Shown in pieces: positions 12,902 to 54,353 of a stretch of 64,000 nucleotides of DNA. The notes under the pieces are model-generated. The model was not told the origin of the DNA, searched no databases, and saw nothing but the letters and a program-made list of their open reading frames with translations. The DNA comes from Hydrolagus affinis. Taxonomy: Eukaryota. A program made the position numbers and the translations under genes. The number at the start of each line of letters is the position of its first letter. The stretch's first letter is position 1. The stretch covers positions 1 through 64,000 of the forward strand of contig JAAILG010000177.1 in the NCBI GenBank assembly GCA_012026655.1. The letters run 5' to 3'.

Positions 12902-13892
12902 TTTTGTAAAGTCTAATTGTTCTCTGTTTGTGAAGAGTCAGTGCTTCTGCTGAGACAAGCTTCAAGCTCGTGTGATCTTTTCACAGATCTAGAGGCCTCT
13001 TTTTGGCCTAGTGATCTGGGGAATATGCTGCTGTCAGCCACTTCTAGCATCTCTCTGCTTGTATTTTCCTGGTCTGTCATGTCCCATGTTCCCAAGTACA
13101 AGTTCTTGGCATTGACAGTGAAGTCGAAACAACAATGGTTGTGAGTATTTGTGTGTGTCTATGGTCATGTGAATAACATTTGCTTCTCAGTGAAACAAGG
13201 CAACTCATTGTTTTTTGACTGTCTTGCTGGTTCATCAGTGAAATTCTGTAACTAGATTTAAGTGCAAAGTGATTGGGAATATCCACGTTATACTGGACTA
13301 TAACTTTTGCGTAAAAGTTTTACGTTTGCAGTAGAGGGAACAACAACAACTTGTACCTATATAGCACCCTTCACGCAAGAAGATGAAGGGTGCTATATAG
13401 ATGAGATACATGATAAATTATGGTTGAGATGAGAGACATGATTCTAAATGCACAGTTGCATAGACAAAGTCTTTACTACTTCATGAAAAAGGAACTCTAA
13501 TTCCACAATTGCCATGACCATCAATCACTTTTAGTGTTTGTCAAGTGACGGGCAAAGTAAATCATAGCCATATTGTGAAATGTCACTTCAGCAGATAATA
13601 ACTTTATTTTTTTAATCCATTCATCAAGTGGGAGATTAGGGTTTGCAAAATTAATGGTAAATGAAATACTGTTCTGCCCAGGTCATAATTTTAGGAACAA
13701 GACTCATAAACGAGAGTATAAACGGCATAAAATCTGATACTGTCATGCATATCATAAGCAGATCCAGATGCGATCTGTGCAGTATTGTACAGTGGTTGTA
13801 ATTTATGCAACTATTATACCCATTTTAGACCCTAAAATAATGAATTCTGCCTTATTTTACCAATCCAGCTTTTAAATACCAGATTCTTTGCT

Positions 13893-14195
13893 ATAATAAT
13901 AATCCTTGCATTTTGATACAGCACTTTTCACATTTTCTAGACATCTCAAAGCCCTTCACAGAATATACTGTGAAGTGAATTAACTGTATATCTTTGGGCG
14001 AAATACAGCAGCCAGTTGCGCACAGCAGTGTCCCACAAACAATCATGGATTGAAATGATCAATTTATTATTTTTTGAGGAATTATTATTACATGTATGGA
14101 GTAAGGAAACTTGCCCAAGGTTTCGCCCTGCCTGGAATTGAACGCAGGTCTCTCGCTTGTAAGGCGAGTACTCTAACCACTGAGCTACAGGACTC
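13893..14195 (-). mobile_element. Young tRNA-SINE, full length
   Basis: Same architecture as the other full-length copies. Confidence 0.9.
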
Positions 14196-14429
14196 AAACA
14201 ACCATATTATTTACTTAATTTACAGCACACACACATACACACATGTGTATTTACACATATAGACAAGCACTGAAGAGTTTCACAATTTAAGGGTAATGGC
14301 AAACCAGAAGACAGTGGGATTTGGGCTTTCACGGAGTGCATCTATTCCAGTGTTCAAACCATCTCCTACCAAAATCATTTGAAGTCATAACACAATCTAA
14401 TTATATTGACAGAAAAGGGGAATCAGAAT

Positions 14430-15099: not shown

Positions 15100-15812
15100 G
15101 ATCAATGACACTTCTGCGGGATTTAAACAGCCTTTGCCCCAGTTTAATCACATCACAAGGCATCCTAATTGACTTAGACCATTCTTCTCTCTCAGCGCTT
15201 TAAACTGCTGCTTAGTCTGCTTTGCCTGGGATGACATTTGCTTTTTGACCCCTTTTCAGTAAAAAAAAGTGGAAAGGCAAGTAAGGGGCCGTTAAAGCTT
15301 GAAAACAAAGTCCTTTGTTGCCTCCTCATTCCTTCAGCAAGGGAATGTGTCTGCCTTATAGAAAAGGAACAACTGGGTCTACAGGCTGCAGGCACTTCTC
15401 CTGGGAAATAAAAATCTCGATACTTTATTTAATGTACGTTTTCCTGAATTTCATGCTTGCATTTCCTCGAGGCAGATGGGGATCTTGCAAAGCAAGGGAC
15501 AGTGCTGCTAAGTCTGCGTTTAGCTGTATGTAGGACCAGCTGCTGTTTAGAGTTTTGGTAGCTGCCTTCCTGTGTTAATCTGATTTACTCGTTTGAGGGC
15601 TGACCTCATCATCCTGTCAGTGTGGTATCCCACCTACACAGTTAACAGCAGCTCAGTATTTGCTCAGAGAGCTGGCAGTGCTCCACACTGCTCAGAGACG
15701 AAAGGTTTGTTCTTTTCGCTTTCTACAGTGAAGGGATTTGGTGCAGAGGAAAACGCCAGCGCTAAAAGCAAGCAAGCTATCTTACATCTACGAGTTAAAT
15801 ATCATTTGGACA
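15100..15812 (+). promoter_or_regulatory. Probable KLHL4 proximal promoter and 5' UTR
   Basis: Unique, repeat-free sequence directly upstream of the ATG. No CpG island; the TSS cannot be placed from sequence. Confidence 0.45.
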
Positions 15813-16225
15813 ATGATGTCAGTGTCTGGGAGGAAGGAGTTTGATATGAAGCAGATTCTGAGGCTGAGGTGGAAATGGTTCAGTCACCCCTCGCAGAGTT
15901 CTTCTGGAAACAGTGGCTGTCTCCAGCAGGAGGGAATTGAGCACCGTAACATGGGTCAGAACAGGTTGAAGAGCCATTCTCGGGATAGAGGTGGACTCAA
16001 GAAAAACAGCAGCCCCGTAAACAGTTTACTGGCACCTGCGCCTGGTCCAGTTTACAGCAGAGGTGACAGTCAGTCATGGCATCAGCAGAATACAGTGGCA
16101 CACACACCAGAGAATGAAGGACTCTCTAAAATCTCGACACAAGAGAATACGATTAAAGAAGAAAAGGAAAATAAGGAGGCAGTGGAATCAGGCACTGTTG
16201 ATCTTACAGAAGAACCTGCAGAGAG
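15813..16225 (+). CDS. KLHL4: Kelch-like protein 4, coding exon 1 (ATG at 15813 or 15816)
   Basis: Translates [26 protein letters not shown]...[19 protein letters not shown]...LAPAPGP, the N-terminus typical of KLHL4. Ends at AG|GTAGGA (phase 2), matching exon 2. Confidence 0.9.
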
Positions 16226-17152
16226 GTAGGAATTTCTAATAAGAAGCATTATTAACGGTACTTAAAAAAAACTGTCATCACTGAAAAAGATTAAAACAAA
16301 AATAATTCAATGAAATAGTGTGACCATAATTGAAGAATTTGCATGATCTTCACAAAGAATTTGCATGATCTTTACATACAGTTCTGTATTCTGTTTTGAG
16401 TGCCTTTGACCGATTGCCTGCCTGTTAAGATTTATTTCTTCCAGTGAAAGATTAGAATGTGTGTGGATAATTTTGCTTGCTGTCACATGTTTATTCACTC
16501 ATTAGGAAAAACGTGCAAATCTATGCTTCAACTCCATACCCAGAGTTCTGTGTAGCTTGTTAAGACTGATTTCCCAGCCAGAGACACACTTCAGTTTGCA
16601 GTACAGTCGGCAGAACAGACGAATAATTTATTTGAGGTTATATTTAAAACCAGTCTCATGTTTATTCAACGCTTCGTTTACTGACACTTGTTAAAAAGCA
16701 GATTTCTTTTTTGTTATTGCTTCCCAGCCTTGTCGATGAAAATGTCTCTCATTCCCCCACCCCAAAGTGTACAATGGAGTATAATTTCTAAAAGAGAAAA
16801 GATATCTGTGATTTGTAGAAGGATGAGTCAGAAATGAACTTTGGGATTGCTACACAGTCTCCTAACTCAGTTCCCACTTCTGTGAATTCATAGCATAGAA
16901 TTCCATCCAGTCGGCCGTGACACATCTTGGATTTACAATCTACTATTTACTAATCCTTGTGAGAATCTCACCATTTAGAGATTTAATGCATTTAACCAAC
17001 TCCCAAAATGAGCTGGGCACTGCTATGCGTTCTTTGATATCAAGATCAAAATGTTGATCTGTAGACTCTAATTTCCCTCCCTTGCCGCCACTTCCTAATG
17101 CTGAAAATGTACAGTGGAAGTTGGTGTGGGCACACAGAGGATTACGGCAAGA

Positions 17153-23560: not shown

Positions 23561-24088
23561 CAGAATTGGTCTGGAAACAAATGTGAAATAAATGTTTATT
23601 TCCCCATCCATTGTACTGAAGCCATTTGAGTGGGAGGCCAAACCAAGAGAAAGCTCAAAAGGTTTAAAACCACCACAGCAATAAAATTACACTTCAGGAG
23701 GGCGTCCCAAGGCGCTGACAACAATTTTTATTACTAAAACTCCAAATTATTCATTAACTTTCCATTAAAAAAAGGCTTCAACTGAAGATGACATATTATG
23801 TGAGAACATAAACCATAGCTAAAAAAGGTACTTTAGGTGAGAATGCAACATTTCACAATACAGTACTGTAGATAACAAAGGCAAATTGGATTTATTGAAG
23901 CAGTCATGAAACATGATATTCTCCACTCCTACAAGTGCACACTTACTTTCAAAACAGACACACTAACTGTACAGATTTCACTATCGTGGATCAATGAAGA
24001 TCAATAGCAAAACAGATCTAAGAGGGGATCAGGTCAGAAATATAGTGATATAAAACCCTTCCTGTGAGTGGTTTGCAGAGATATGGTG

Positions 24089-24387
24089 GAGCCCTGTAGC
24101 TCAGTGGTTAGAGCACTCGCCTTACAAGCGAGAGACCTGGGTTCGATTCCAGGCAGGGCAAAACCTTGGGCAAGCTTCCTTACTCCACATGCCTAATAAT
24201 AATCCCTGTCCCAAAAAATGTGTCATTCCAATCCATGACTATTTGTGAGACCCGCTGTGTGCAATTGGCTGCCATGTTTCGCCCACAAAATATACAGTCA
24301 AATCACTTTACAGTATACTCTGTGAAGTGCTTTGAGATCTCCAGATGACGTGAAAAGCACTATATCAAATGCAAGGATTATTATTAC
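24089..24387 (+). mobile_element. Young tRNA-SINE, full length, best-preserved tRNA head
   Basis: Near-complete cloverleaf at 24091-24160 followed by the SINE body and tail. Confidence 0.92.
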
Positions 24388-25380
24388 TATATTGAGACTC
24401 TGTATAAATACTCAGCATTAGTATTCACTCTAGCAGGCTATTTCACTGCCACTAAATATGGTTTATTTTTGTCAGCAAAATTTCATTACCGCAATAACTC
24501 TATCAACAATTGAAACTCACAAAGCTCATTGGATATATTTTTGCACCCTGCAAACCATCCAACCAGCAAAGTATTAAACTTAATTTCCTGCTGCTCCCAG
24601 TTAATTGAGATCATATAATTCAGTCTGTGCACATTGTCCTGTACTGCATATTTATTGTGGAATGAATGGAAAATAACACTTGGCACTGGAACTATGACTG
24701 ATATTAGACCAATAATATTTTGATTATAATAGGGAGAGATGAAAGGAGCTTGCCGAAAATTCGTCTGTATTACAGAAGATAAGCTTTTCTAATTTAAAAT
24801 TAATGGGAGAAAAATTCTGATGAGCAGGGACACATAGTTCTCCATCAGCTTGTAAATGGCATTTGTGTTTCTCATTCTGGATGTCATTGCTTTCAGTGCT
24901 GATCTGCTATGAACACTGCTCCAATCTGTTCCTACCTTAAAGACAAGCTGCTAAACATGAACTTAAAATTTTACAACACGTGCCTGGGCAGACATATTTT
25001 ATAACTAGAATTTCACACCAATTGCCACCCAGCTGGAGAGCTCTATGGTAACACTAACACATTCCCATGACGTCTGCATTTGCATATTCAAAACCAATGA
25101 AAATTAGAAGCAATACAAAGTGTATATTTAGATCAGCTATTTGAGAGAAGCAGGAAAATCTAAACACTTGTGTTAATATTAAGGTAAAAATAAGTCAAGT
25201 GCAACTTATTTTCAGTTACCATGGACTACGCTACTAGATAACAATATCTACTGCTAGTTAACATGCTGTTATGACACTTCATAAAGGTGTATAATCTCCC
25301 CTTCCTCACTCTATGCACACACACTGCACTCTTTCTGACCAGTCAGTTGAATTGGTGTAGCCCAAGGACATAGATAACAA

Positions 25381-25605
25381 CAAAAACAGAAGTTGCTGGG
25401 GAAACTCAGCGGGTCAGAAAGCAACCATGGAGAAAGGAAAAGGAGTCAACGTTTCGGATCTACAACCCTTCGTCAGATGAGGGGTTGTAGACCCGAAACA
25501 TTGACTCCTTTTCCTTTCTCCATGGATGGTGTCTGACCTGCTGAGTTTCCCCAGCAACTTCTGTTTTTGTTTCAGATTCCCAGTATCTATAGTATTTTGT
25601 GTTTT
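25381..25605. mobile_element. Palindromic Penelope-like insertion with a 14-bp TSD
   Basis: Inverted arms span 25379-25571; GACATAGATAACAA is repeated at 25367-25380 and 25606-25619. Confidence 0.85.
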
Positions 25606-25937
25606 GACATAGATAACAATTTGCTCAGAATTGATCCACCATGCACCAAATGTCCTCTGGCACAGCTCTGTTTGTGTCATCATTTCCCCTCCTCCCACCC
25701 ACCCAGATTTTTGTTTTGTCAGACAAGTGGGTGTCTGACACATGCAGAAAACCATCACCATGTTTAAGAGTATCCAAACCAGACAGAAATCCACACATTT
25801 ACAGTATTCAGAAACTATCCGTACAAAGTAAACCAGAGTGCCATTTGAGATTGAGACTTGAACTCAGAATTACTGGTTGGAAAGCATTGTAGCTGATAGG
25901 TTACATCTAGTGTAACCTTTTGTATTTTCACCTCTTA

Positions 25938-26215
25938 TAATAATAATAATCATCCTTGCATTTGATATAGCGCTTTTCACGTCTTCTAAAGGTCTCAAAG
26001 CGCTTCACAGAATATAGTATAAAGTGAGTTGACTATATATTTGTGGGCGAAACACAGCAGCCAATTGCGCACAAACAGTTGTGGATTGAAATTTTTGAGG
26101 GATTATTATGAGATGTGTGGAGCAAGGAAACTTGCCCAAGGTTTCGCCCTGCCTGGAATTGAACCGGGGTCGCTCACTTGTAAGGCGAGTGCTCTAACTA
26201 CTGAGCTACAGGACT
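25938..26215 (-). mobile_element. Young tRNA-SINE, full length
   Basis: Family head and tail on the minus strand, with small internal deletions. Confidence 0.9.
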
Positions 26216-27477: not shown

Positions 27478-29644
27478 GCCGTTTTTCTTTTCCTCATTTA
27501 CACTGCTATCGAACCTTAATGAGTTAAAATGCTACCAAAAGACATTGCATTGGCTCCAACACTAGAGCTAAAACGTTCTATTGAATTTGGAGAATCGGTT
27601 TCAACATTATTCAGAATATCATCAATGCTGAAACGATGCGGGTTTACAACGACCTCGGCCATTAAGAGAAGTGACAAGCACAGGACACTGCAATATCCAA
27701 GAATGAATCAACCTGGTCTCTCCCAACAAAGCTGAAGGAGGAAAACTTAACAATTGGGGAAACCAAAACCTGGGAACTGATCCCCTGCCTCCAGTCTTTC
27801 TGCCACAGGTGCACTTACTTAGGGGGAAATATATCTACATAGGAAAAATATAACAAGATCCAAGTAAAATAATAAATAATGACTACGTCAAATCAATTTC
27901 AAATAACAGTCGATAGAACTGTTGAAGGTCAGTTTAATTACTTTGCTTATAAAAAATGTTATGATGTCTTTCTTTGGTAGTAACTCCTATTAAACAACAC
28001 CCCTATGGCCTATTTACTGGAGCGATAGCAAAGATTTGTAGTTATTGTATTACCATCAATCTCAAAGAATTATTAATTTAAAAATGTCCCAAACACAAGC
28101 TTCAAGATGCAGCCCAACGCTAGGAGTTCTTTGCTATTTGACAATCTGTATTATATAAATTGGTTTCCTTGCTGATTTTTTCCAGGTAATTTTCACATTT
28201 CCTCATCCTCGCTCCAGAACTCAGTTCAATATTTGAAAGCTTCTAATCAGAATAGTTAATTTTGTAACAGTGTTCGCATTCCCTTTCTATATATGGGGTG
28301 AATGTCAAATTTCTGTATAAATCCAAATCATACATAGAAATATAGATTAGAGAGAGATAGGTCATTTCGTCCAATTTGCCATTTTATTCATTGTCTTATT
28401 TCCTTATTAGATATTAGATACTATAGTAAACCTTCACTAATTTTGCATTTAAAGTTCTGCATTGCATAAAACTGAAAGCTGTTCTCTGGGAGAGAAGTTC
28501 ACAAGGAATTCTCAGAAGAAAAGCTCCACACACTACTTCTCTTGTCTGCTAAACTTCTCTCCCGGACAGCAGCTTCCAGTTCCCTGCAATGCAGAACTTC
28601 AAATGCAAAATTAGCCGAGGTTGACATAGTATCTAAGAGGTTATGGGTAGCATGCATTCTCGCACCAGCAGAATTTCTTACTGATTTTCTTTCCATTATC
28701 TCAACAATCATTGAGGTCAATTTCATGAGACATCAGTGCTCGTTAAAGGTGCCTCCTGCTGCACTGGGCTGTTTTGTTACCTGATAATTTATTGTGTCAG
28801 TGCAGGAAGAAACATTGAGTTTCTAGCAATCGGCAAATGAGATGCACAAGTTCCCTTCGCCTGAAAACGATCAAACATATATAGTTAGAAGTCTAGGCAT
28901 CCTGGTAAGGAATGATTAGAAGACTAGAAGTGTCATTACTTACTGTAATTACTCTCAGCCCAGAAGCAACATCTCCTGTAATCATTCCTGAGCTCGTCTT
29001 AGCCTCACTTATTACATTATTTTACAGATACTGTAGCATCGGTATTCTATCGGTGCTCTCTGAAACAATTTGCTTATCTACTTCTGTTCTAGGCTTCTGC
29101 CAAAAGCTCCCAGTTAAACCCAAAGTGACTAAATACGAGGTCATTTAGATGTTCAGGAGTTAGTGCACTATATTAAAGCATTTTCATTGTCTTGCTGACA
29201 AATCCAGCAGTAATTGGAATTCAATTCTATTTTTAAAATAATTATTTGGTGTAATTTAATCCCAAACACAGATTGCTCTGTCCAGCGTATTGAACCCTAT
29301 TGTAGTATTGAAGGCTTCATTTTGGAATTGTAATACAGTATTGTTGTTTGACCTGTCTTTAGCAGTCGCCTGATTTCAGCACGTGCGTTTCACCCAGTAA
29401 AAGACAGGAGCCAATATTTAAAATTCTTCACTGTGTCCTTATTTTACAATCGAGCATCTCTGGAGATGCAATTTCCCAGCATCAAGTTTACTAGAGAAAC
29501 AATGTACAGTACAGTACAGTGAAGGAAGCAATGTCATGTGTTACATTTCACCACAGGGTATCCACACGCAGCACAGAACAATATCCGGAGAATCCAATTC
29601 TGAAATCTACATTGTAATCCACAAGTTTGTTTAGGGTATGCTTT

Positions 29645-34845: not shown

Positions 34846-37524
34846 ATCTTTTTTCTATGTCTTTTTTAAATTTATTGTTCTCTGATACTGGGAATGTTTT
34901 GAAAATGGTCTATTCCACTTGGATATTTTTGACTTATTCTATACTTTATCAAAAAGGCTGAATTAAAGCCCGCAATGATTCTAAATTACTCTTTTAACCA
35001 CATTATATCCAAACTAATAAAATTATGTATTTATAAAAATATTTTAATATGTTGGATTTTTGAATCGTTCCTTAATTGAATCAAATGCTTTGAAATGTCC
35101 TCCTGAAGTGAAAGGCGCTATATAAATGTAAATTCTATTGAACGCTTTGGTAAAGCAATACTCTAAAAATACACATCTATTGCAATACACAACAGATAAT
35201 TGCACAAATTATTTGTAAATTTATATTGCTGGGGTAATGATATGATGTGCCCAACCTCCCTGCTCAGGTCCAAATCCCAGACTATCCCTGACTAACCTCC
35301 TGATGTGAAAGGCGCTTTACAAATGTAATTTTGTATTCTAATACTTTCAGGAATTAGGTAAAAAGGATGTGTCCCTCCAGGGAGTGAGTGCATGTTCAAT
35401 TCCAGTAATCTATCTCTGGAATTTCCATGTGTAGGTGGGATGCATGGAATTCTCAGTTTGGGTTGGATACTCATATATGGTGATAAGTTTCCGCATGTGT
35501 CAGACTCCCAGTTGATCCAGCTGACCCCCAAAAATGTGATTGAAATAAGAACTGCATGACCAGGGCATTGTGTTTACTCAAGGTGTTCTTATGCTATAAT
35601 AATTGCTTTGTGGTTAACAAAAAAGGCACCTATCTTTTGAATTTGGGCATGTCAATGTTTCATAACAGCTATAGTACATGCTATAAACTAATTACAGGGT
35701 AGAAGAAAGATTTCTTTTTCAAAACTCTGTTATGACACACTTATATAATCCCACCATCATTTGTCCTTTACTTTATTCCTAACATGATGAGCTCCTACAA
35801 AGGCAAAGTATGCATAGCCTATCCTCATGGTAAATTGAATACGATTATATGTCGCACATTCTCTTCCTATCCTTCTCATTGCTGCTTTTTTCCCCTTGGT
35901 TTGTTCTTCAGTTTTTAATCACTCTTCCCCCAGGCTTAACATACCATTAATTCCACCCCACAATTGTTGCTGCTCTTCATCGTTTTGAACTATCTTTCTC
36001 TATAGTCAATCACCCACCCACTCTGTATATCTTATGATTGCAACTCTCCCCCATCATTTTTTTTGTTCATAATTACTAGTGTCTCTAGTCTGTACTTTTC
36101 ATCATTCCACAAACTCCCATAGATGTGTTCTTGTAATTATCTTTCTCTTTTCAGGCTCTGCCTCTGTTTCTCACCTCTATCCCACTTTGTCTCTTCAAGC
36201 AATTTTTCAGATGATTTCCCAACCTAACTCATGAGAATTTGACAAGCAGCATTTTCCTCTCACCCAGCATCAAGCCCATAGATAGGCAAATGCACACAGT
36301 CCTTTTACAGCCTCTCTAATCATTGTTTCATCAACGTCATAATAATACTTTCATTTCATATAGCGCCTTATTGCATCATTGTGGCAACTCAAAGCATTTA
36401 CATATGGGTAGCACACCTTGCTCCTCAGACCCCACTTGAGGTGTGGTATAAATATGATACACAACATTGAAACAAACAATATGGGCGAACCTAAAGACGC
36501 GTTATAATATCAATTTGCAATTAACATTGCAATCCAATAGACTGCTTCAGGATAATTCACTGAGAGTTTTGTGTATCCATTTCTCAATGTTTATTTGAAA
36601 GGAGCCAGTGGAAGCAAATATTCCATTGTGTGCATAACAACATGGTTACTGTAGAGGAAGTCACGTTTGTTATTCCAGCTGAAATGCTGTATGTGAAATG
36701 ATTAGACCCTATATTATGCACTACCGAGTAGGATTAAAGTGGTTGATGCGTGTGTGAGTGTCTTTTAAATACCACAGGGCACCCTACCCAGAGATAAGTG
36801 TAATAAGGCCAGTTAATAACCTTTAACCTATGTCTAGATAATGCACATTGCATTTATGGGAACATTCATTTGCAGGAAACATTTGCTCAGGGATCAATGA
36901 ATTCCCCATAGGAAGGAAATGTTTTGCTCTCAATGGGGATGTTCATATTAAAACAGCAGTCCTCCTTTCTGGCGCCACTAGAAATACGAAAAAAAAGTGA
37001 TGAATGATATCTCCCTGACCGGATTCTGTGAATGGTCCGAAGTGCGTTTCTCTTACTTCATTTCTCAAGGACAGTGTCATTATCTTGGGCAGTTTGACAG
37101 CAGGCACAGTAACTGCAAGCAAGAGCCTGCCTCACTGAGGGGCTGCGTTCCAGTCGTAAGCAAACCAGTCACGTGAAGCCAGACCTGTCAAATACATTGC
37201 AATCTCATTCCGAGTGCTGCTGCTGTATTTTTGAGAGATCTAAATGAGTTTAACTATATTTAAATATTCCAGATTCCGCTACCTGTATTCAAGTTGTCGA
37301 ATGTAGCACTCGTTCTTTAATAACTAACTATGCAACGACCAATAACACTACACGGAAACTGTAAACTGCCCAGTGTACCCTGATATTTAATCAGTTAAGG
37401 AATCTACCCTCTGTAAATGTTTCCTACTCCTGAATGCAAATGTTAATCCCTGTTCACTGTTAGCAGCAAATGATAACATGACGCTATAATCTGCATCGCC
37501 GCCTCTTGCTGTTATGCTCAAATT

Positions 37525-44975: not shown

Positions 44976-46675
44976 ATCTTCTACGGGTGACATAAACAAA
45001 ACAGGTGACATATGTGCACATAAAGGATTGTCCATGAGGAAATGTGCAAACAATAAAATGATATGGGCGCAATTATTACCATTAAAGGAAACTACATGGT
45101 GCATGTGGAATGCAGCATTATGAGCAGAAATACTGTAATTCTCTGACAGAATAAAAGTAAATCAGTGATTTTGCTATTACCTTTAATCAGGACAGATTGG
45201 CTCTTGCTGATTCTTATTGACCTGCTGTAGATTCAGCATTTGAGGATTTATTTCAGATTTGCAGCATTTACAGTTTTCCTATTCCTTCCTAAACAACTAC
45301 TTTAATATGATTTAGGGGATTTGACTGCAAATCAAAAGAAGTATTATTGACCTTCGGAAACACACATTTAAAATATTGGGGTTATGTTTGCCAGACTAAC
45401 AACCCCGGCTTTGTTATATTAATTACAGCTTCCAATCGCATGAAAATCTAGTTAATAAACCAAAAAGCCTGCTCACTCTCTGTCTATCTCTTGTCATCTG
45501 CTGAATAGACTCTTGACAAAACCATATAATGCTTTGTTGATGATTTCCTTTGAAAAAGACTTGGATAGTATTACAGCAATGTGTACATACAAGAATAATG
45601 AAATATCCCTTGGCATGCAAACTTTTGTGTGCCATTGGGACCATAGAATGGCATCTGTAGAAAGGAAAAAAAACAGTGCTCAATAATGCTAAGTACTGTA
45701 GTTTGCTCGATTACCTTTTATGTTGTTCAGAACTCTCCCTTGGGAAACCAAATAAATTGGTTAAGATGCTGATGGACCAAATTCTACATGTCTTGTTGAA
45801 GGAACTACTTACAGCTTGATTGTTTGAATAGCCTTATCTGATCTTAATACAGGATATCAGACGGATTTGACTTCACAATATTGTATCCCCTCTAATTCCT
45901 CATTCATTTTTGATGTGTGAACTCAAGACAATCAACTTTGGTCTACTATGTCCGTATGGGGAAGAGGGCATTACAACTCATAAGGGCAATCTTGCCCTTA
46001 TCAGACGTGCTCACAATTTCCATTAAAGCCCAATAGACAGAAATCAGCAGAGTGAATTTTGTGCTCCAATTGGGATCAGCAAAATCTTCATGTCGGAGTT
46101 TTAATTTGCACAAACCATATTGCAACAAAGTCATCATGACTAAAGAGCAATGTCCTTGCAGAATTCCTAAATCTTTAATTTAGAAAGTGCAGCTCTACTG
46201 TGTGTGTTTCTTTCTAGAAATGTGACATTATTAAGTACAATTACTTTATTGTACTTAATGTTGTACAATTACTTTACATAAAGCATTATTGGGAAAAAAA
46301 AATTCCACCTGGGTCCAATTTACTCTATTTATGAAGCATTTCTGTGCCAGAAATTGGAAAATTGTTGAATTCAGTCTCAACTTTGAAGCCAGTTTTCTGT
46401 GGATCTTAAAATAACCAAAATAACAAGTTTCAAAATTATGATTTTATTTAAGAATTTGCCAAATTACGCTAAGTAATGCTAAGTAGATCAGGTCAAGACC
46501 CGACCCAGTTGGAATTTGTATCTCATTACAGCTATAGCCAGTTATAGGAATCAGACAGACAGCAATGCTATACTCATACTGTGTTTACATTAGGTGCACA
46601 GAATATTCAGCCTAGTATTTGGCCCTTTCATTCCATCCACGTCATTTTATTGTGATCAATACATCTTCTCTGGGT

Positions 46676-47320
46676 TAGAACATAAGAACATAATAGGAGC
46701 AGGAGTAGGCCAATCGGCCCATCGAGCTTGCCCCGCCATTCAATCATGGCTGATATTCTACTCAAACTCCAGCTACCTGCCTTATCCCCATACCCCTTGA
46801 TCCCTTTATAAATGAGAAATCTATCTAACTCAGTCTTGAATATTTTCAACGACTGCGCATCAACAGCCCTTTGTGGTAAAGAATTCCATGCATTCACCAC
46901 CCTCTGAGTGAAGAGATTTTTTCTCAACTCAGTGTGAAAGGGCTGACTCCTAACTTTAAGACTGTGTCCCCTGGTTTTAGATTCTCCAACCAGGGGAAAC
47001 ACTCTCCCACTATCTACTTTGTCGTGCCTCTTAATAATCTTATAGGTTTCTATAAGATCCCCTCTAATTCTTCTATGTTCCAGAGAATATAGGCCCAAAT
47101 TAATCAACCTGTCGTCATAACTCATCCCCCTCATTCCAGGTACTAACCTAGTAAACCTATGCTGCACTCCCTCCAAGGCAAGTACATCTTTTCTTAAATA
47201 AGGAGACCAACACTGCACACAGTATTCCAGGTGTGGTCTCACCAGGGCCCTGTATAGCTGCAGCAAGACTTCCCTACTCTTATACCCTAACCCTTTCATA
47301 ATGAAAGCTAACAAATCGTT
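46676..47320 (-). mobile_element. CR1-clade LINE, 5'-truncated, open ORF2 C-terminus
   Basis: LYRALVRPHLEYCVQCWSP...RRIRGDLIETYKI...FTQRVVNAWNSLP are CR1 hallmarks; (TTCTTATG)-type 3' tail. Confidence 0.95.
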
Positions 47321-47904
47321 AGTTTGATCTTAATATGATGAGTATGAATGTGTTCATTGTTTACTTCTAATTGCCTTTTGAATATTATTTCGCTCACAAA
47401 AGAATTGGTGCCCCAAATATATTTTTATTTCACACATCATCAACGTTAAAATTACTTTTTTTCATAGGAGACTTTCAATACCACCTTACCAAGAAGTTAC
47501 AATAAACTGTTTATGAAGAACTCTTCTTCTTGATCCTGTAAACATATTTGAAATTCCATAAAGCTATCCACAGTGTCGGGTTTTGTAATTGATATCTGAA
47601 GACTGATTTTGCTTGTACCCCATGGCAATTTGTTGCCATTTAATCATTTTAAACCAGTTTCACTGAAGTGAACTGGTTTCGTACACAACTGAAAAAGGAT
47701 AATTAAAAACACATATTTTTTTCATCTTGATTATTGAGACTCAGAAATTAAATTTCTTAGCCTCGTCCTCGTAGCCATCAGCCTGCAGCAAAATCCACAG
47801 CTCATTTGTCTCTGCTTTGACAGGCGCAAGGTTTGAAATTGTGGATAATGGAAATAGGATTTGGTGCATGTGCTATGGTGGGTTGTGAGCGCAATGTTAT
47901 TTTT

Positions 47905-52027: not shown

Positions 52028-52124
52028 GGCATCTTGAAGCGCATTCTGAATGCAGAACTAGATTGTGATTACAGTTTTGGCCTCCAGTGCTCTATTAACA
52101 GCCATCTGTGCTCCTTTTCCGCAG

Positions 52125-52298
52125 GTTGCCTTTAAGCAGCTGCTCTCCTAGCAGGATGAGTTCTGGTGGTTCAGATGAGTTCTTCCAGTCCATGAATCAC
52201 GCTGAACAAACTTTCCGGAAGATGGAGAACTACCTCCAGCATAAGCAGCTGTGTGATGTTCTCTTGATTGCTGGGGACCACAAGATCCCAGCACATCG
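52125..52298 (+). CDS. KLHL4: KLHL4 coding exon 2 (start of BTB domain)
   Basis: Acceptor ctccttttccgcag|G; encodes [11 protein letters not shown]...[34 protein letters not shown]; donor CG|GTAAAG, phase 2. Confidence 0.93.
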
Positions 52299-53474
52299 GT
52301 AAAGTGCATGTTAGATATCACTGTGCAGTGACTTATTGGGTGTATGTTTACCATTCTGGGGATATTTACAGTAACACTAAGGCTGGTCAGCAGAAAGTGG
52401 CTCACTTTGCACCATTTTGCCAACAGTTTAAAAACTTTTGCTTTTTGGCAAGATTGAGAAAAATTGAACATAGTTTAAGCAAACGCACAGAATGCGCATT
52501 TGAATTGATCTGATGTCTCAATAGCATATCTGTTACAAGCCTGGAGGCCAGTGAATCATCGGATACATTAAAATCACATCAAAGAGGACTGATGTTCTTC
52601 TATGAAAGGCCATCTGAGCAACTAAGGTAGTCGGTGAGATATTAGTCAATTTGCAACACGGCTAACATGGATCCTAGTCATCCAGTGGCATATGGGTTCC
52701 TTGTATGTCCCTCGATTCAAATTTGTTACTGGGATTAGTGTTCCGGTAGAACTAAGGGCGAAAGAGATAAAGCAGAATAATGAGTAAAGCGTTTAAAATA
52801 TGATTCATATGGCAGTACTCACTTATGTGTCAGCTGTCAAATAAAGAAGCATTTTAACTTCTTGGCCGTGAAAGTAACTAACTTGTTGCAAAGATGCTAC
52901 TGCTGGTAGAGGGAAGGGAAGTGTGCTCTTTATGTTTAAAATGTCAGTGGAGAAAATGTAGATTTCTATCAGCTTATTTTATAATATTTAGCAATGGATA
53001 AATACAGCTGCACCCACCTCCCTCCCCACCCCCCATCGCACACCCACAGAGTAACATTGAGTGCACAAGGGAATATTTATCTTACACACATGAACAATCA
53101 GAACTAAACTGTTTATAATATTTCTAAAATTAATCCATGATTAATATTATTATCAGACAGTTTGAATATAGAATCCTACATTTCACCATTTATAGCATGC
53201 TATGGCTCAGCCAGCGGAGAGTACAGAAATATTTCACCAGCCTGCATTACAGATCCATTAAATACAGACACTTAGCACTAAATAAAAATAAGTGTGACAC
53301 TAGCTATACGCATATGATAGCAGCAAGAAATAATTCAAATGGATATATCTACAAAGATTATGTTTTATTTTATGTTGCAGTTTTCAGGGTAAGGGTGAGG
53401 AGACTGAAATTCCTGAGCATATATTCATCCATTTTTGTTTTACTTATCTACGATTTTATCTGGATTGCTTTCAG

Positions 53475-54015: not shown

Positions 54016-54310
54016 GCTCTTGTAGCTCAGTGGTTAGAGCACTCACCTTACAAGAGTGAGACCTGGGTTCGAATCTGGGGCGAAACCGTGGGCAAGTTTC
54101 CTTACTCCATGTGCCTAATAATAATCCATCCCCCAAAAAACTTGGTCGTTTTCAATCCATGACTGTTTGTGGGACGCTGCTGTGCACAATTGGCTGCCGC
54201 GTTTCGCCCACAAATATACAGTCAATTCACTTTACAGTATATTCTGTGAAGCGCTTTGAGACGTCAATAAGATGTGAAAAGCCCTATATCAAATGCAAGG
54301 ATTATTATTA
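54016..54310 (+). mobile_element. Young tRNA-SINE, full length, just upstream of exon 4
   Basis: Family head, core and tail. Confidence 0.92.
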
Positions 54311-54353
54311 TGTTATATCAGGGCTCTATAATGATTTCTTTCATTTGTGACAG

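What the first reader, a model, noticed from the sequence alone, without database searches (positions are those of the whole stretch)
25367..25619. TSD-flanked ~190-bp palindrome folded at hammerhead-ribozyme cores
Seen: ~95-bp inverted arms and a perfect 14-bp TSD. At the axis the minus strand reads CTGACGA-A-GGGT-tgtag-ATCC-GAAACGTT (25448-25476) and the plus strand reads (CA)GATGA-G-GGGT-tgtag-ACCC-GAAAC. Established: CUGANGA/stem II/GAAA with a palindromic ACGU loop defines the minimal hammerheads of Penelope-like elements, which often insert as inverted ends. Inference: this is a Penelope-mobilised insertion whose inversion junction falls at the ribozyme core. It would form a long hairpin in KLHL4 pre-mRNA. 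Helix I appears lost, so monomeric cleavage is doubtful.
Basis: partly seen in the sequence, partly recalled or inferred. Interest (0 to 1): 0.7.

Follow-up and report, generated by a model that had tools for sequence, protein, structure and literature searches.

The report
Double-primed Penelope retroelement stub
This mirror-image sequence in a gene's intron is one of many short stubs of a common Penelope-type jumping gene, likely built afresh at each landing by copying the first ~135 letters of the element's RNA onto both cut DNA ends; its built-in RNA scissors are predicted to be dead, so it is ordinary, but the stubs likely record where that RNA starts.

Summary
The arms are the pLTR end of an endonuclease-bearing Penelope-like element (PLE) of Neptune/Nematis type, with RT, CX4CxxC linker and GIY-YIG. 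The genome holds 1,182 exact copies of its tail. In 90 copies sampled by the tail alone, 49 carry an inverted arm. Junctions differ (43 distinct of 45), so this is neither a self-copying palindromic family nor a one-off. Arm ends pile up at the first bases of the hammerhead (60 of 131 ends in a 12-nt window), not at its cut site. ORF-linked copies start at the same point. The inverted arm often reaches further than the forward arm (21 of 45), which a fold-back cannot produce. Best model: two cDNAs are primed on the two nicked strands at the tail's two RT start sites, run to the RNA 5' end on uncut RNA, and are end-joined. The KLHL4-sense hammerhead is broken. The architecture is published, and this scan has noted such stubs before on other DNA (111 notes, at least 22 genomes). 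Interest is low to modest.

The parts
25367..25380 (+). Left target-site duplication (last 2 nt may belong to the inverted arm)
   Evidence: sequence
25381..25477 (-). Inverted arm: copy of element positions about -36 to -133 (-1 = 25605); inferred second cDNA, primed at the upstream RT start site
   Evidence: outer end lies at -41..-28 in 39 of 45 sampled inversions
25444..25476 (-). Minimal hammerhead with intact core CUGACGA-A, stem II GGGU/AUCC, GAAA-CG-UU (predicted cut after 25448); helix I 5' strand missing; antisense to the host gene
   Evidence: stem II pairing probability 0 within the full hairpin, 0.55 in isolation
25476..25477 (+). Junction: 2-nt microhomology (GA) between the two arms
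   Evidence: sequence; alignment
25476..25571 (+). Forward arm, element positions -130 to -35; broken hammerhead (no C3/U4, no helix I 5' strand, G16.2 changed to A); host-gene sense
25572..25605 (+). 34-nt PLE tail, present on one side only; in full elements it is followed by a short leader (about 33 nt) and the ORF start
25606..25619 (+). Right target-site duplication (first G may be templated by the element)
   Evidence: G follows the tail in 73 of 90 copies
15732..16226 (+). Host gene: N-terminal coding stretch of a KLHL1/4/5-type gene (KLHL4 by recalled N-terminus), upstream of the intron
   Evidence: no Pfam hit for this stretch
52099..52299 (+). Host gene: next coding stretch found (start of BTB); later stretches carry BTB, BACK and Kelch

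Best explanation
This is a short insertion stub of an abundant Neptune/Nematis-type Penelope-like retrotransposon, likely made in one event in which both nicked target strands primed reverse transcription on the uncut element RNA and both copies ran to that RNA's inferred 5' end before being end-joined head to head. Shown: identity of the arms with the PLE pLTR; TSD; one-sided tail; copy-specific junctions; arm ends piled at -140..-129; ORF-linked copies beginning at -135..-138. Inferred: the endonuclease makes an 11-16-nt staggered cut; one strand primes at the tail end (about -1) and the other at the second start site (about -34), by analogy with the two in-vitro start sites of the anole Poseidon element; A(-136), the first base of hammerhead helix I, is the transcription start; repair trims and joins the two cDNAs. 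The stub is predicted to be inert: neither hammerhead can fold in the hairpin, and the sense one is mutated.
For: Parent: L102:4124-6367 carries RT motifs, CQHRRCNTC linker, GIY-YIG with CCHH and the same 3' end, with its own TSD (Pfam GIY-YIG E 3.3e-4, below the curated cutoff). The closest proteins are from sharks and rays. Sample of 90 of 1,182 tail copies: 41 simple, 49 inverted; TSD found in 81 of 90. After dropping 4 complex loci: 60 of 131 arm ends at -140..-129; 60 of the 77 arms that reach -129 stop there; 43 distinct junctions of 45; 20 microhomology, 6 blunt, 19 with filler; inverted arm outer end at -41..-28 in 39 of 45. The inverted arm reaches more than 5 nt further than the forward arm in 21 of 45. 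Arms of one copy share subfamily variants (123 of 133 comparisons at 4 non-CpG sites; all 8 polymorphic sites 0.80 against 0.57 mean and 0.69 maximum in 2,000 permutations), while CpG decay is mostly private to one arm. Of 14 loci with pLTR directly before the ORF start, 7 (4 independent events) begin at -135..-138 and none extends further. Of 12 joins from inside the ORF back to the element end, 8 loci (6 events) land at -136..-140, several with microhomology. The 3' ends continue into the ORF leader for at least 4 nt in 22 of 90 copies, i.e. internal priming. PMC11167929 shows both strands cut and extended, two RT start sites bounding the tail, and uncut RNA as substrate.
Against: No RNA 5' end was measured; a strong RT stall or processing site at -136 would give the same genomic pattern. 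The genome-wide step is weaker than in the sample: 2,311 hits for a core 20-mer against 804 for the 20-mer just upstream, 2.9-fold, so the tail-selected sample over-represents stubs. 17 of 77 arms pass -140. The assembly is fragmented (245,464 contigs) and may under-represent long copies and perfect palindromes. End positions are BLAST ends, good to about 2-3 nt. Two junction types occur twice among 45. The in-vitro analogy comes from a different PLE clade.
Confidence: 0.75

Rival explanations
1. Same double priming, but -136 is an RT stall or RNA-processing site inside a longer tandem transcript rather than a transcription start.
For: Long copies also end in ORF-leader bases, so tandem templates exist. 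17 of 77 arms pass -140. A CAG with an upstream CTCTAAC lies at -136/-135 and resembles a splice acceptor (consensus recalled). PMC4209133 reports an intron ending at helix I in Drosophila virilis Penelope.
Against: No shared upstream exon sequence precedes the stubs. ORF-to-pLTR joins lie at different ORF positions with microhomology and no GT donor. An internal promoter in the pLTR is shown for D. virilis Penelope (PMC2377424), and CCAGTTC fits an initiator (consensus recalled).
Confidence: 0.13
2. The palindrome is a self-propagating non-autonomous unit (MITE-like or retrozyme-like) that is copied whole.
For: All 40 scored hits of the whole-element search match nearly full length (3,418 candidates), but they were ranked by likeness to the query. 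Two junction types recur among 45.
Against: 43 of 45 junctions are distinct. Arm lengths vary continuously. Helix I variants AGUC and AGUU occur in both stubs and upstream-extending copies (23/5 and 67/20; genome-wide 506 against 196), so this marker shows no stub-only lineage. No head-to-tail tandem unit at this locus.
Confidence: 0.05
3. Fold-back or self-priming: one cDNA (or an antisense RNA) folds at a short palindrome and copies itself, as proposed for rotifer PLEs.
For: PMC3846280 proposes self-priming for head-to-head junctions. The arms share variants. The window copy alone is compatible with it.
Against: In 21 of 45 copies the inverted arm holds sequence absent from the forward arm, and in some the arms do not overlap at all (L111, L093, L145). 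The inverted arm's outer end is fixed near -34 (39 of 45).
Confidence: 0.05
4. The axis is set by hammerhead self-cleavage of the template RNA.
For: The axis is at the ribozyme; an earlier scan note (e1-9820663) reports a signal at the cut site in another genome.
Against: Here 1 arm end falls in -105..-101 against 3.2 expected from background, and 3 of 131 in -104..-100. Stubs contain the core and stem II, which lie upstream of the cut.
Confidence: 0.02

Closest known systems
Insertion architecture of EN+ Penelope-like elements: inverted 5'-truncated pLTR, 30-40 bp one-sided tail, TSD (PMC8557442 passages; Pen2a_Av in PMC3846280 passages)
   Same: Head-to-head inverted pLTR, 34-nt tail on one arm, TSD, GIY-YIG/RT parent.
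   Different: Minimal form with no ORF between the arms; about a third of sampled copies take it; the junction distribution was measured here.
[quoted passage not shown]
   Same: CUGANGA, extra base after position 9, G10.1-C11.1, palindromic CG at 15.2/16.2, 4-bp helix I; opposite-strand pairs 100-700 bp apart were noted there.
   Different: In this copy helix I is missing on both strands and the sense core is broken; the paper gives no mechanism for the opposite-strand pairs.
Poseidon of Anolis (PAc) in vitro (Frangieh et al. 2024, PMC11167929, parts 1-2 of 4 read)
   Same: Two internal RT start sites bounding the tail, both strands extended, uncut hammerhead RNA as template, AT-rich targets.
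   Different: Different clade (no linker Zn finger); its ORF starts within the hammerhead, whereas here it starts after the tail; the parts read do not derive palindromic stubs from the mechanism.
Twin priming of LINE-1 (recalled, not read here)
   Same: Second target strand primes internally; inversion flanked by a TSD; microhomology at the junction.
   Different: In L1 the two cDNAs cover adjacent parts with little overlap; here both usually cover the same ~95 nt and the second priming site is fixed.
Non-LTR retrozymes (bioRxiv 10.64898/2026.07.22.740005, parts 1-3 of 5 read)
   Same: pLTR-derived, hammerhead-bearing, non-coding.
   Different: Retrozymes are head-to-tail tandems with a complete ribozyme in each unit; this is a head-to-head pair with incomplete ribozymes.

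Membership tests
EN+ Penelope-like element (parent) | Single ORF with PLE-type RT followed by a C-terminal GIY-YIG with CCHH | tested here: met
   DKG, RT and GIY-YIG/CCHH motifs read in broken natural copies L047 and L102; Pfam GIY-YIG E 3.3e-4, under the cutoff; Pfam found nothing for three RT fragments; homologues carry PF00078/PF26215. No intact ORF was seen.
EN+ Penelope-like element (parent) | pLTR at both ends or partial tandems, inverted truncated copy, 30-40 bp tail | tested here: met
   pLTR after the stop codon and before the ORF start; inversions and tail.
Neptune/Nematis clades | CX2-5CxxC linker between RT and endonuclease | tested here: met
   CQHRRCNTC in L102; definition from PMC8557442.
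Neptune (as against Nematis) | Placement in an RT phylogeny | not tested
   No named reference set was at hand.
Minimal type I hammerhead (family form) | Core, stem II with G10.1-C11.1, palindromic 15.2/16.2, helix I, NUH site | tested here: met
   Column profile: helix I AGUU or AGUC with GACU, both variants pair; 39 of 89 motifs keep the full helix I. An older variant changes loop II and keeps stem II (2 of 89). Rfam gave no hammerhead hit.
Minimal type I hammerhead (this copy) | Complete core plus helix I on one strand | tested here: not met
   Plus strand lacks C3/U4 and has G16.2 changed to A; minus strand lacks the helix I 5' strand; stem II probability 0 in the full hairpin.
Minimal type I hammerhead | Self-cleavage, as a dimer or protein-assisted | not testable with these tools
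   Needs a cleavage assay.
Non-LTR retrozyme | Head-to-tail tandem units, each with a complete hammerhead | tested here: not met
   Head-to-head single unit.
Non-autonomous palindromic family (MITE-like) | Copies share one internal junction | tested here: not met
   43 distinct junctions of 45.

The most novel reading that the evidence does not exclude
Thousands of stubs are an in-vivo footprint of PLE integration: the RNA starts on the first base of the hammerhead, is used uncut, and is primed twice, once per nicked strand, at the two tail-bounding sites. Run-off cDNAs then join each other (palindromes), the target (simple stubs) or another RNA site (partial tandems), and the endonuclease favours one 15-bp site in the resident tRNA-SINE.
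Probability: 0.55. Interest if true: 0.5.

Novelty: new member of a known kind. Interest (0 to 1): 0.28.

Why it matters
How PLEs make their inverted and tandem structures is stated as open in PMC8557442 and PMC11167929. The stubs give base-level predictions (RNA start at helix I, strand-specific use of two RT start sites, no role for ribozyme cleavage in integration) that an existing in-vitro assay can test. The single locus is predicted to be inert. As a class, such intronic ~95-bp hairpins are candidate substrates for editing or small-RNA pathways, which is untested.

Tried and rejected
Rfam scan: no hammerhead model hit; the miRNA-type hits are generic hairpins below gathering score. Pfam on three RT fragments: nothing. 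Run search: no RNA holder listed. The three RNA runs, one sample of another coded organism, cover the repeat family but have no depth on the unique flanks, so expression, A-to-I editing and small RNAs at this locus remain untested. Read-level mapping of RNA or copy 5' ends on the parent's 3' end was not obtained. No empty site was seen; X1 carries the insertion's left junction and may not be independent of the assembly. Peak at the ribozyme cut site: rejected. Splicing as the source of ORF-to-pLTR joins: rejected on junction sequence. Stub-only lineage by the helix I variant: rejected. Samples were ranked by likeness to the query and were not used for the end counts. Loci L119, L123, L143 and L155 were dropped before the arm counts as complex. 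A few 'simple' copies (L081, L087, L132) keep inverted remnants too short for BLAST. Literature searches that found no description of such minimal palindromic stubs or of twin priming in PLEs. Most subscription papers, Repbase and all supplements were not seen and may bear on novelty.

Full report
Observation. The 253-bp feature is present as described: a perfect 14-bp direct repeat at 25367 and 25606, and 96-nt inverted arms at 92% complementarity. It folds at -168 and -162 kcal/mol, z about -22, with 0 of 200 shuffles as stable. A regular expression for the hammerhead core found exactly two matches in the 64-kb window, one per strand, both at the axis. Rfam gave no hammerhead hit. A contig of run X1 crosses the left flank into the arm with about 1% differences, and the arms differ at 8 sites, which argues against an assembly artefact. 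The host is a BTB-BACK-Kelch gene on the plus strand; the name KLHL4 is from a recalled N-terminus.

What the arms are. Copies chosen on the 3' end extend upstream through a pyrimidine-rich UTR into a GIY-YIG reading frame on the hammerhead strand. L102:4124-6367 is a 2.2-kb truncated copy with RT motifs, a CX4CxxC linker, GIY-YIG with CCHH, and the same end. By the definitions in PMC8557442 (passages) that is an endonuclease-bearing PLE of Neptune/Nematis type. The closest proteins are from sharks and rays. I number from the last T of the tail (-1 = window 25605). The family hammerhead is then: helix I 5' strand -136..-133 (AGUU or AGUC), core from -132, stem II -124..-112, cut after -104, helix I 3' strand GACU -103..-100. 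This matches the minimal hammerhead of PMC4209133 (parts 1-2 of 4), which also mentions opposite-strand pairs.

Family census. An exact 33-nt tail pattern occurs 1,182 times; the reversed control occurs 0 times. I analysed 90 of these, taken from the 100 listed places on the first contigs. Of the 90, 41 are simple 5'-truncated copies and 49 carry an inverted arm; a TSD of 7-16 bp was found in 81. Four complex loci were dropped before the arm counts. Of 131 arm ends, 60 lie at -140..-129 (5.0 per nt, against 0.2-1.3 per nt in the bins between -160 and -30), and 60 of the 77 arms that reach -129 stop there. One end lies at -105..-101 against 3.2 expected. Of 45 inversions, 29 have both arms reaching -100 like the window copy, 39 have the outer end at -41..-28, and 43 junctions are distinct (20 microhomology, 6 blunt, 19 filler). 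Genome-wide the step across -136 is smaller: 2,311 core 20-mers against 804 upstream 20-mers. The tail-selected sample therefore over-represents stubs, but the step is there.

Two cDNAs, one source. The inverted arm reaches more than 5 nt further 5' than the forward arm in 21 of 45 copies, and the reverse holds in 13. In L111, L093 and L145 the arms barely overlap. A fold-back cannot supply sequence that the first strand lacks, so the self-priming proposal of PMC3846280 (passages) does not fit as the general route. Arms of one copy share subfamily variants (123 of 133 comparisons at four non-CpG sites; all eight sites 0.80 against a permutation mean of 0.57 and maximum of 0.69), while CpG changes are mostly private to one arm. 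So both arms come from the same source RNA or subfamily and then decayed separately. Mean divergence of forward arms from the column majority at non-polymorphic sites is 2.6% (71 arms). Core CpGs decay at 10-21%, giving no sign of selection on the ribozyme in inserted copies.

Why the axis sits at the hammerhead. Of 30 loci fetched with the ORF start, 14 have a pLTR directly before it. Seven of these (four independent events; L169, L171, L173 and L178 share flanks) begin at -135..-138, seven are shorter, and none goes further. Of 12 joins from inside the ORF back to the element end, eight loci (six events) land at -136..-140, several with microhomology and none with a common GT donor; three land further upstream and one (L191) is unclear. 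The simplest reading is that A(-136), the first base of helix I, is the RNA's 5' end. CCAGTTC fits an initiator (consensus recalled), and D. virilis Penelope has an internal promoter (PMC2377424, abstract and passages). The 3' ends continue into the ORF leader for at least 4 nt in 22 of 90 copies, consistent with internal priming. PMC11167929 (parts 1-2 of 4) showed in vitro, for another clade, cutting and extension of both strands, two RT start sites that bound the tail, and uncut RNA as the substrate. Priming at the first pLTR of such an RNA gives cDNAs of about 100 and 135 nt, which is the anatomy seen. An RT stall or processing site at -136 is not excluded, because no RNA end was measured.

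This copy. The inverted arm reaches -133 and the forward arm starts at -130, joined by a 2-nt microhomology. The host-sense strand carries the broken hammerhead. The intact core is antisense, lacks helix I, and has stem II probability 0 in the full hairpin. The two motifs are on opposite strands, so they cannot form a dimer in one transcript. The RNA runs give no depth on the unique flanks, so effects on the host transcript are untested.

Novelty. Inverted pLTR, tail, TSD and minimal hammerhead are all published. Eight searches found no paper describing these minimal stubs or twin priming in PLEs, but subscription papers, Repbase and supplements were not seen. The retrozyme preprint (parts 1-3 of 5) covers head-to-tail forms in the parts read. 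The scan's own notes hold 111 similar findings in at least 22 genomes and 4 in this genome. My reading was recorded before I saw them, and they are not independent evidence. Verdict: real, a new member of a known kind, inert at this locus, with modest value as a mechanistic footprint. Interest 0.28.

Noticed in passing
TSDs of L121, L135, L136, L151, L155, L160; SINE copy window 54018-54316, positions 208-224: 6 of 74 TSDs (10 bp or longer) map to the same 15-bp site in the tRNA-derived SINE, in both orientations and with different junctions; 3 more map to the SINE tail. About 0.1 would be expected from the window's SINE density (my estimate). This suggests a target preference. A occurs 3 nt before the TSD in 45 of 74.
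   Followed up: partly
L166, L168, L169, L171, L176, L177, L184, L189: Reverse partial tandems: the 5' part of the element (pLTR and/or partial ORF) followed by a stub that starts at -136..-140, consistent with a template jump after run-off.
   Followed up: partly
window 28414-28636: Second, older palindrome (74% self-complementary) with ends like TAGATACTATAGTAAACC; no match to the PLE stub. It resembles a Tc1/pogo-type MITE (recalled).
   Followed up: no
window 25937-26215, 24086-24390, 13892-14196, 54018-54316 and about 15 more: Abundant ~300-bp tRNA-derived SINE with an (AAT)n tail; ARAGORN calls four heads as tRNA-Val/Cys. Two copies flank the stub in inverted orientation.
   Followed up: no
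L169, L171, L173, L178, L189: One PLE insertion duplicated together with at least 280 bp of flank (90-97% identity), apparently carried within another repeat.
   Followed up: no
window 46631-47329 (-): 233-codon open frame resembling the C-terminus of a CR1-type LINE ORF2 (resemblance recalled).
   Followed up: no
window 25732-25783, 1479-1566, 35425-35505: Another short dispersed repeat next to the stub; abundant in the laid runs.
   Followed up: no
sample loci with forward arm starting at -135: The base before G(-135) is T in 6 of 8 and G in 2. This may reflect target composition or a cap-derived G; unresolved.
   Followed up: partly
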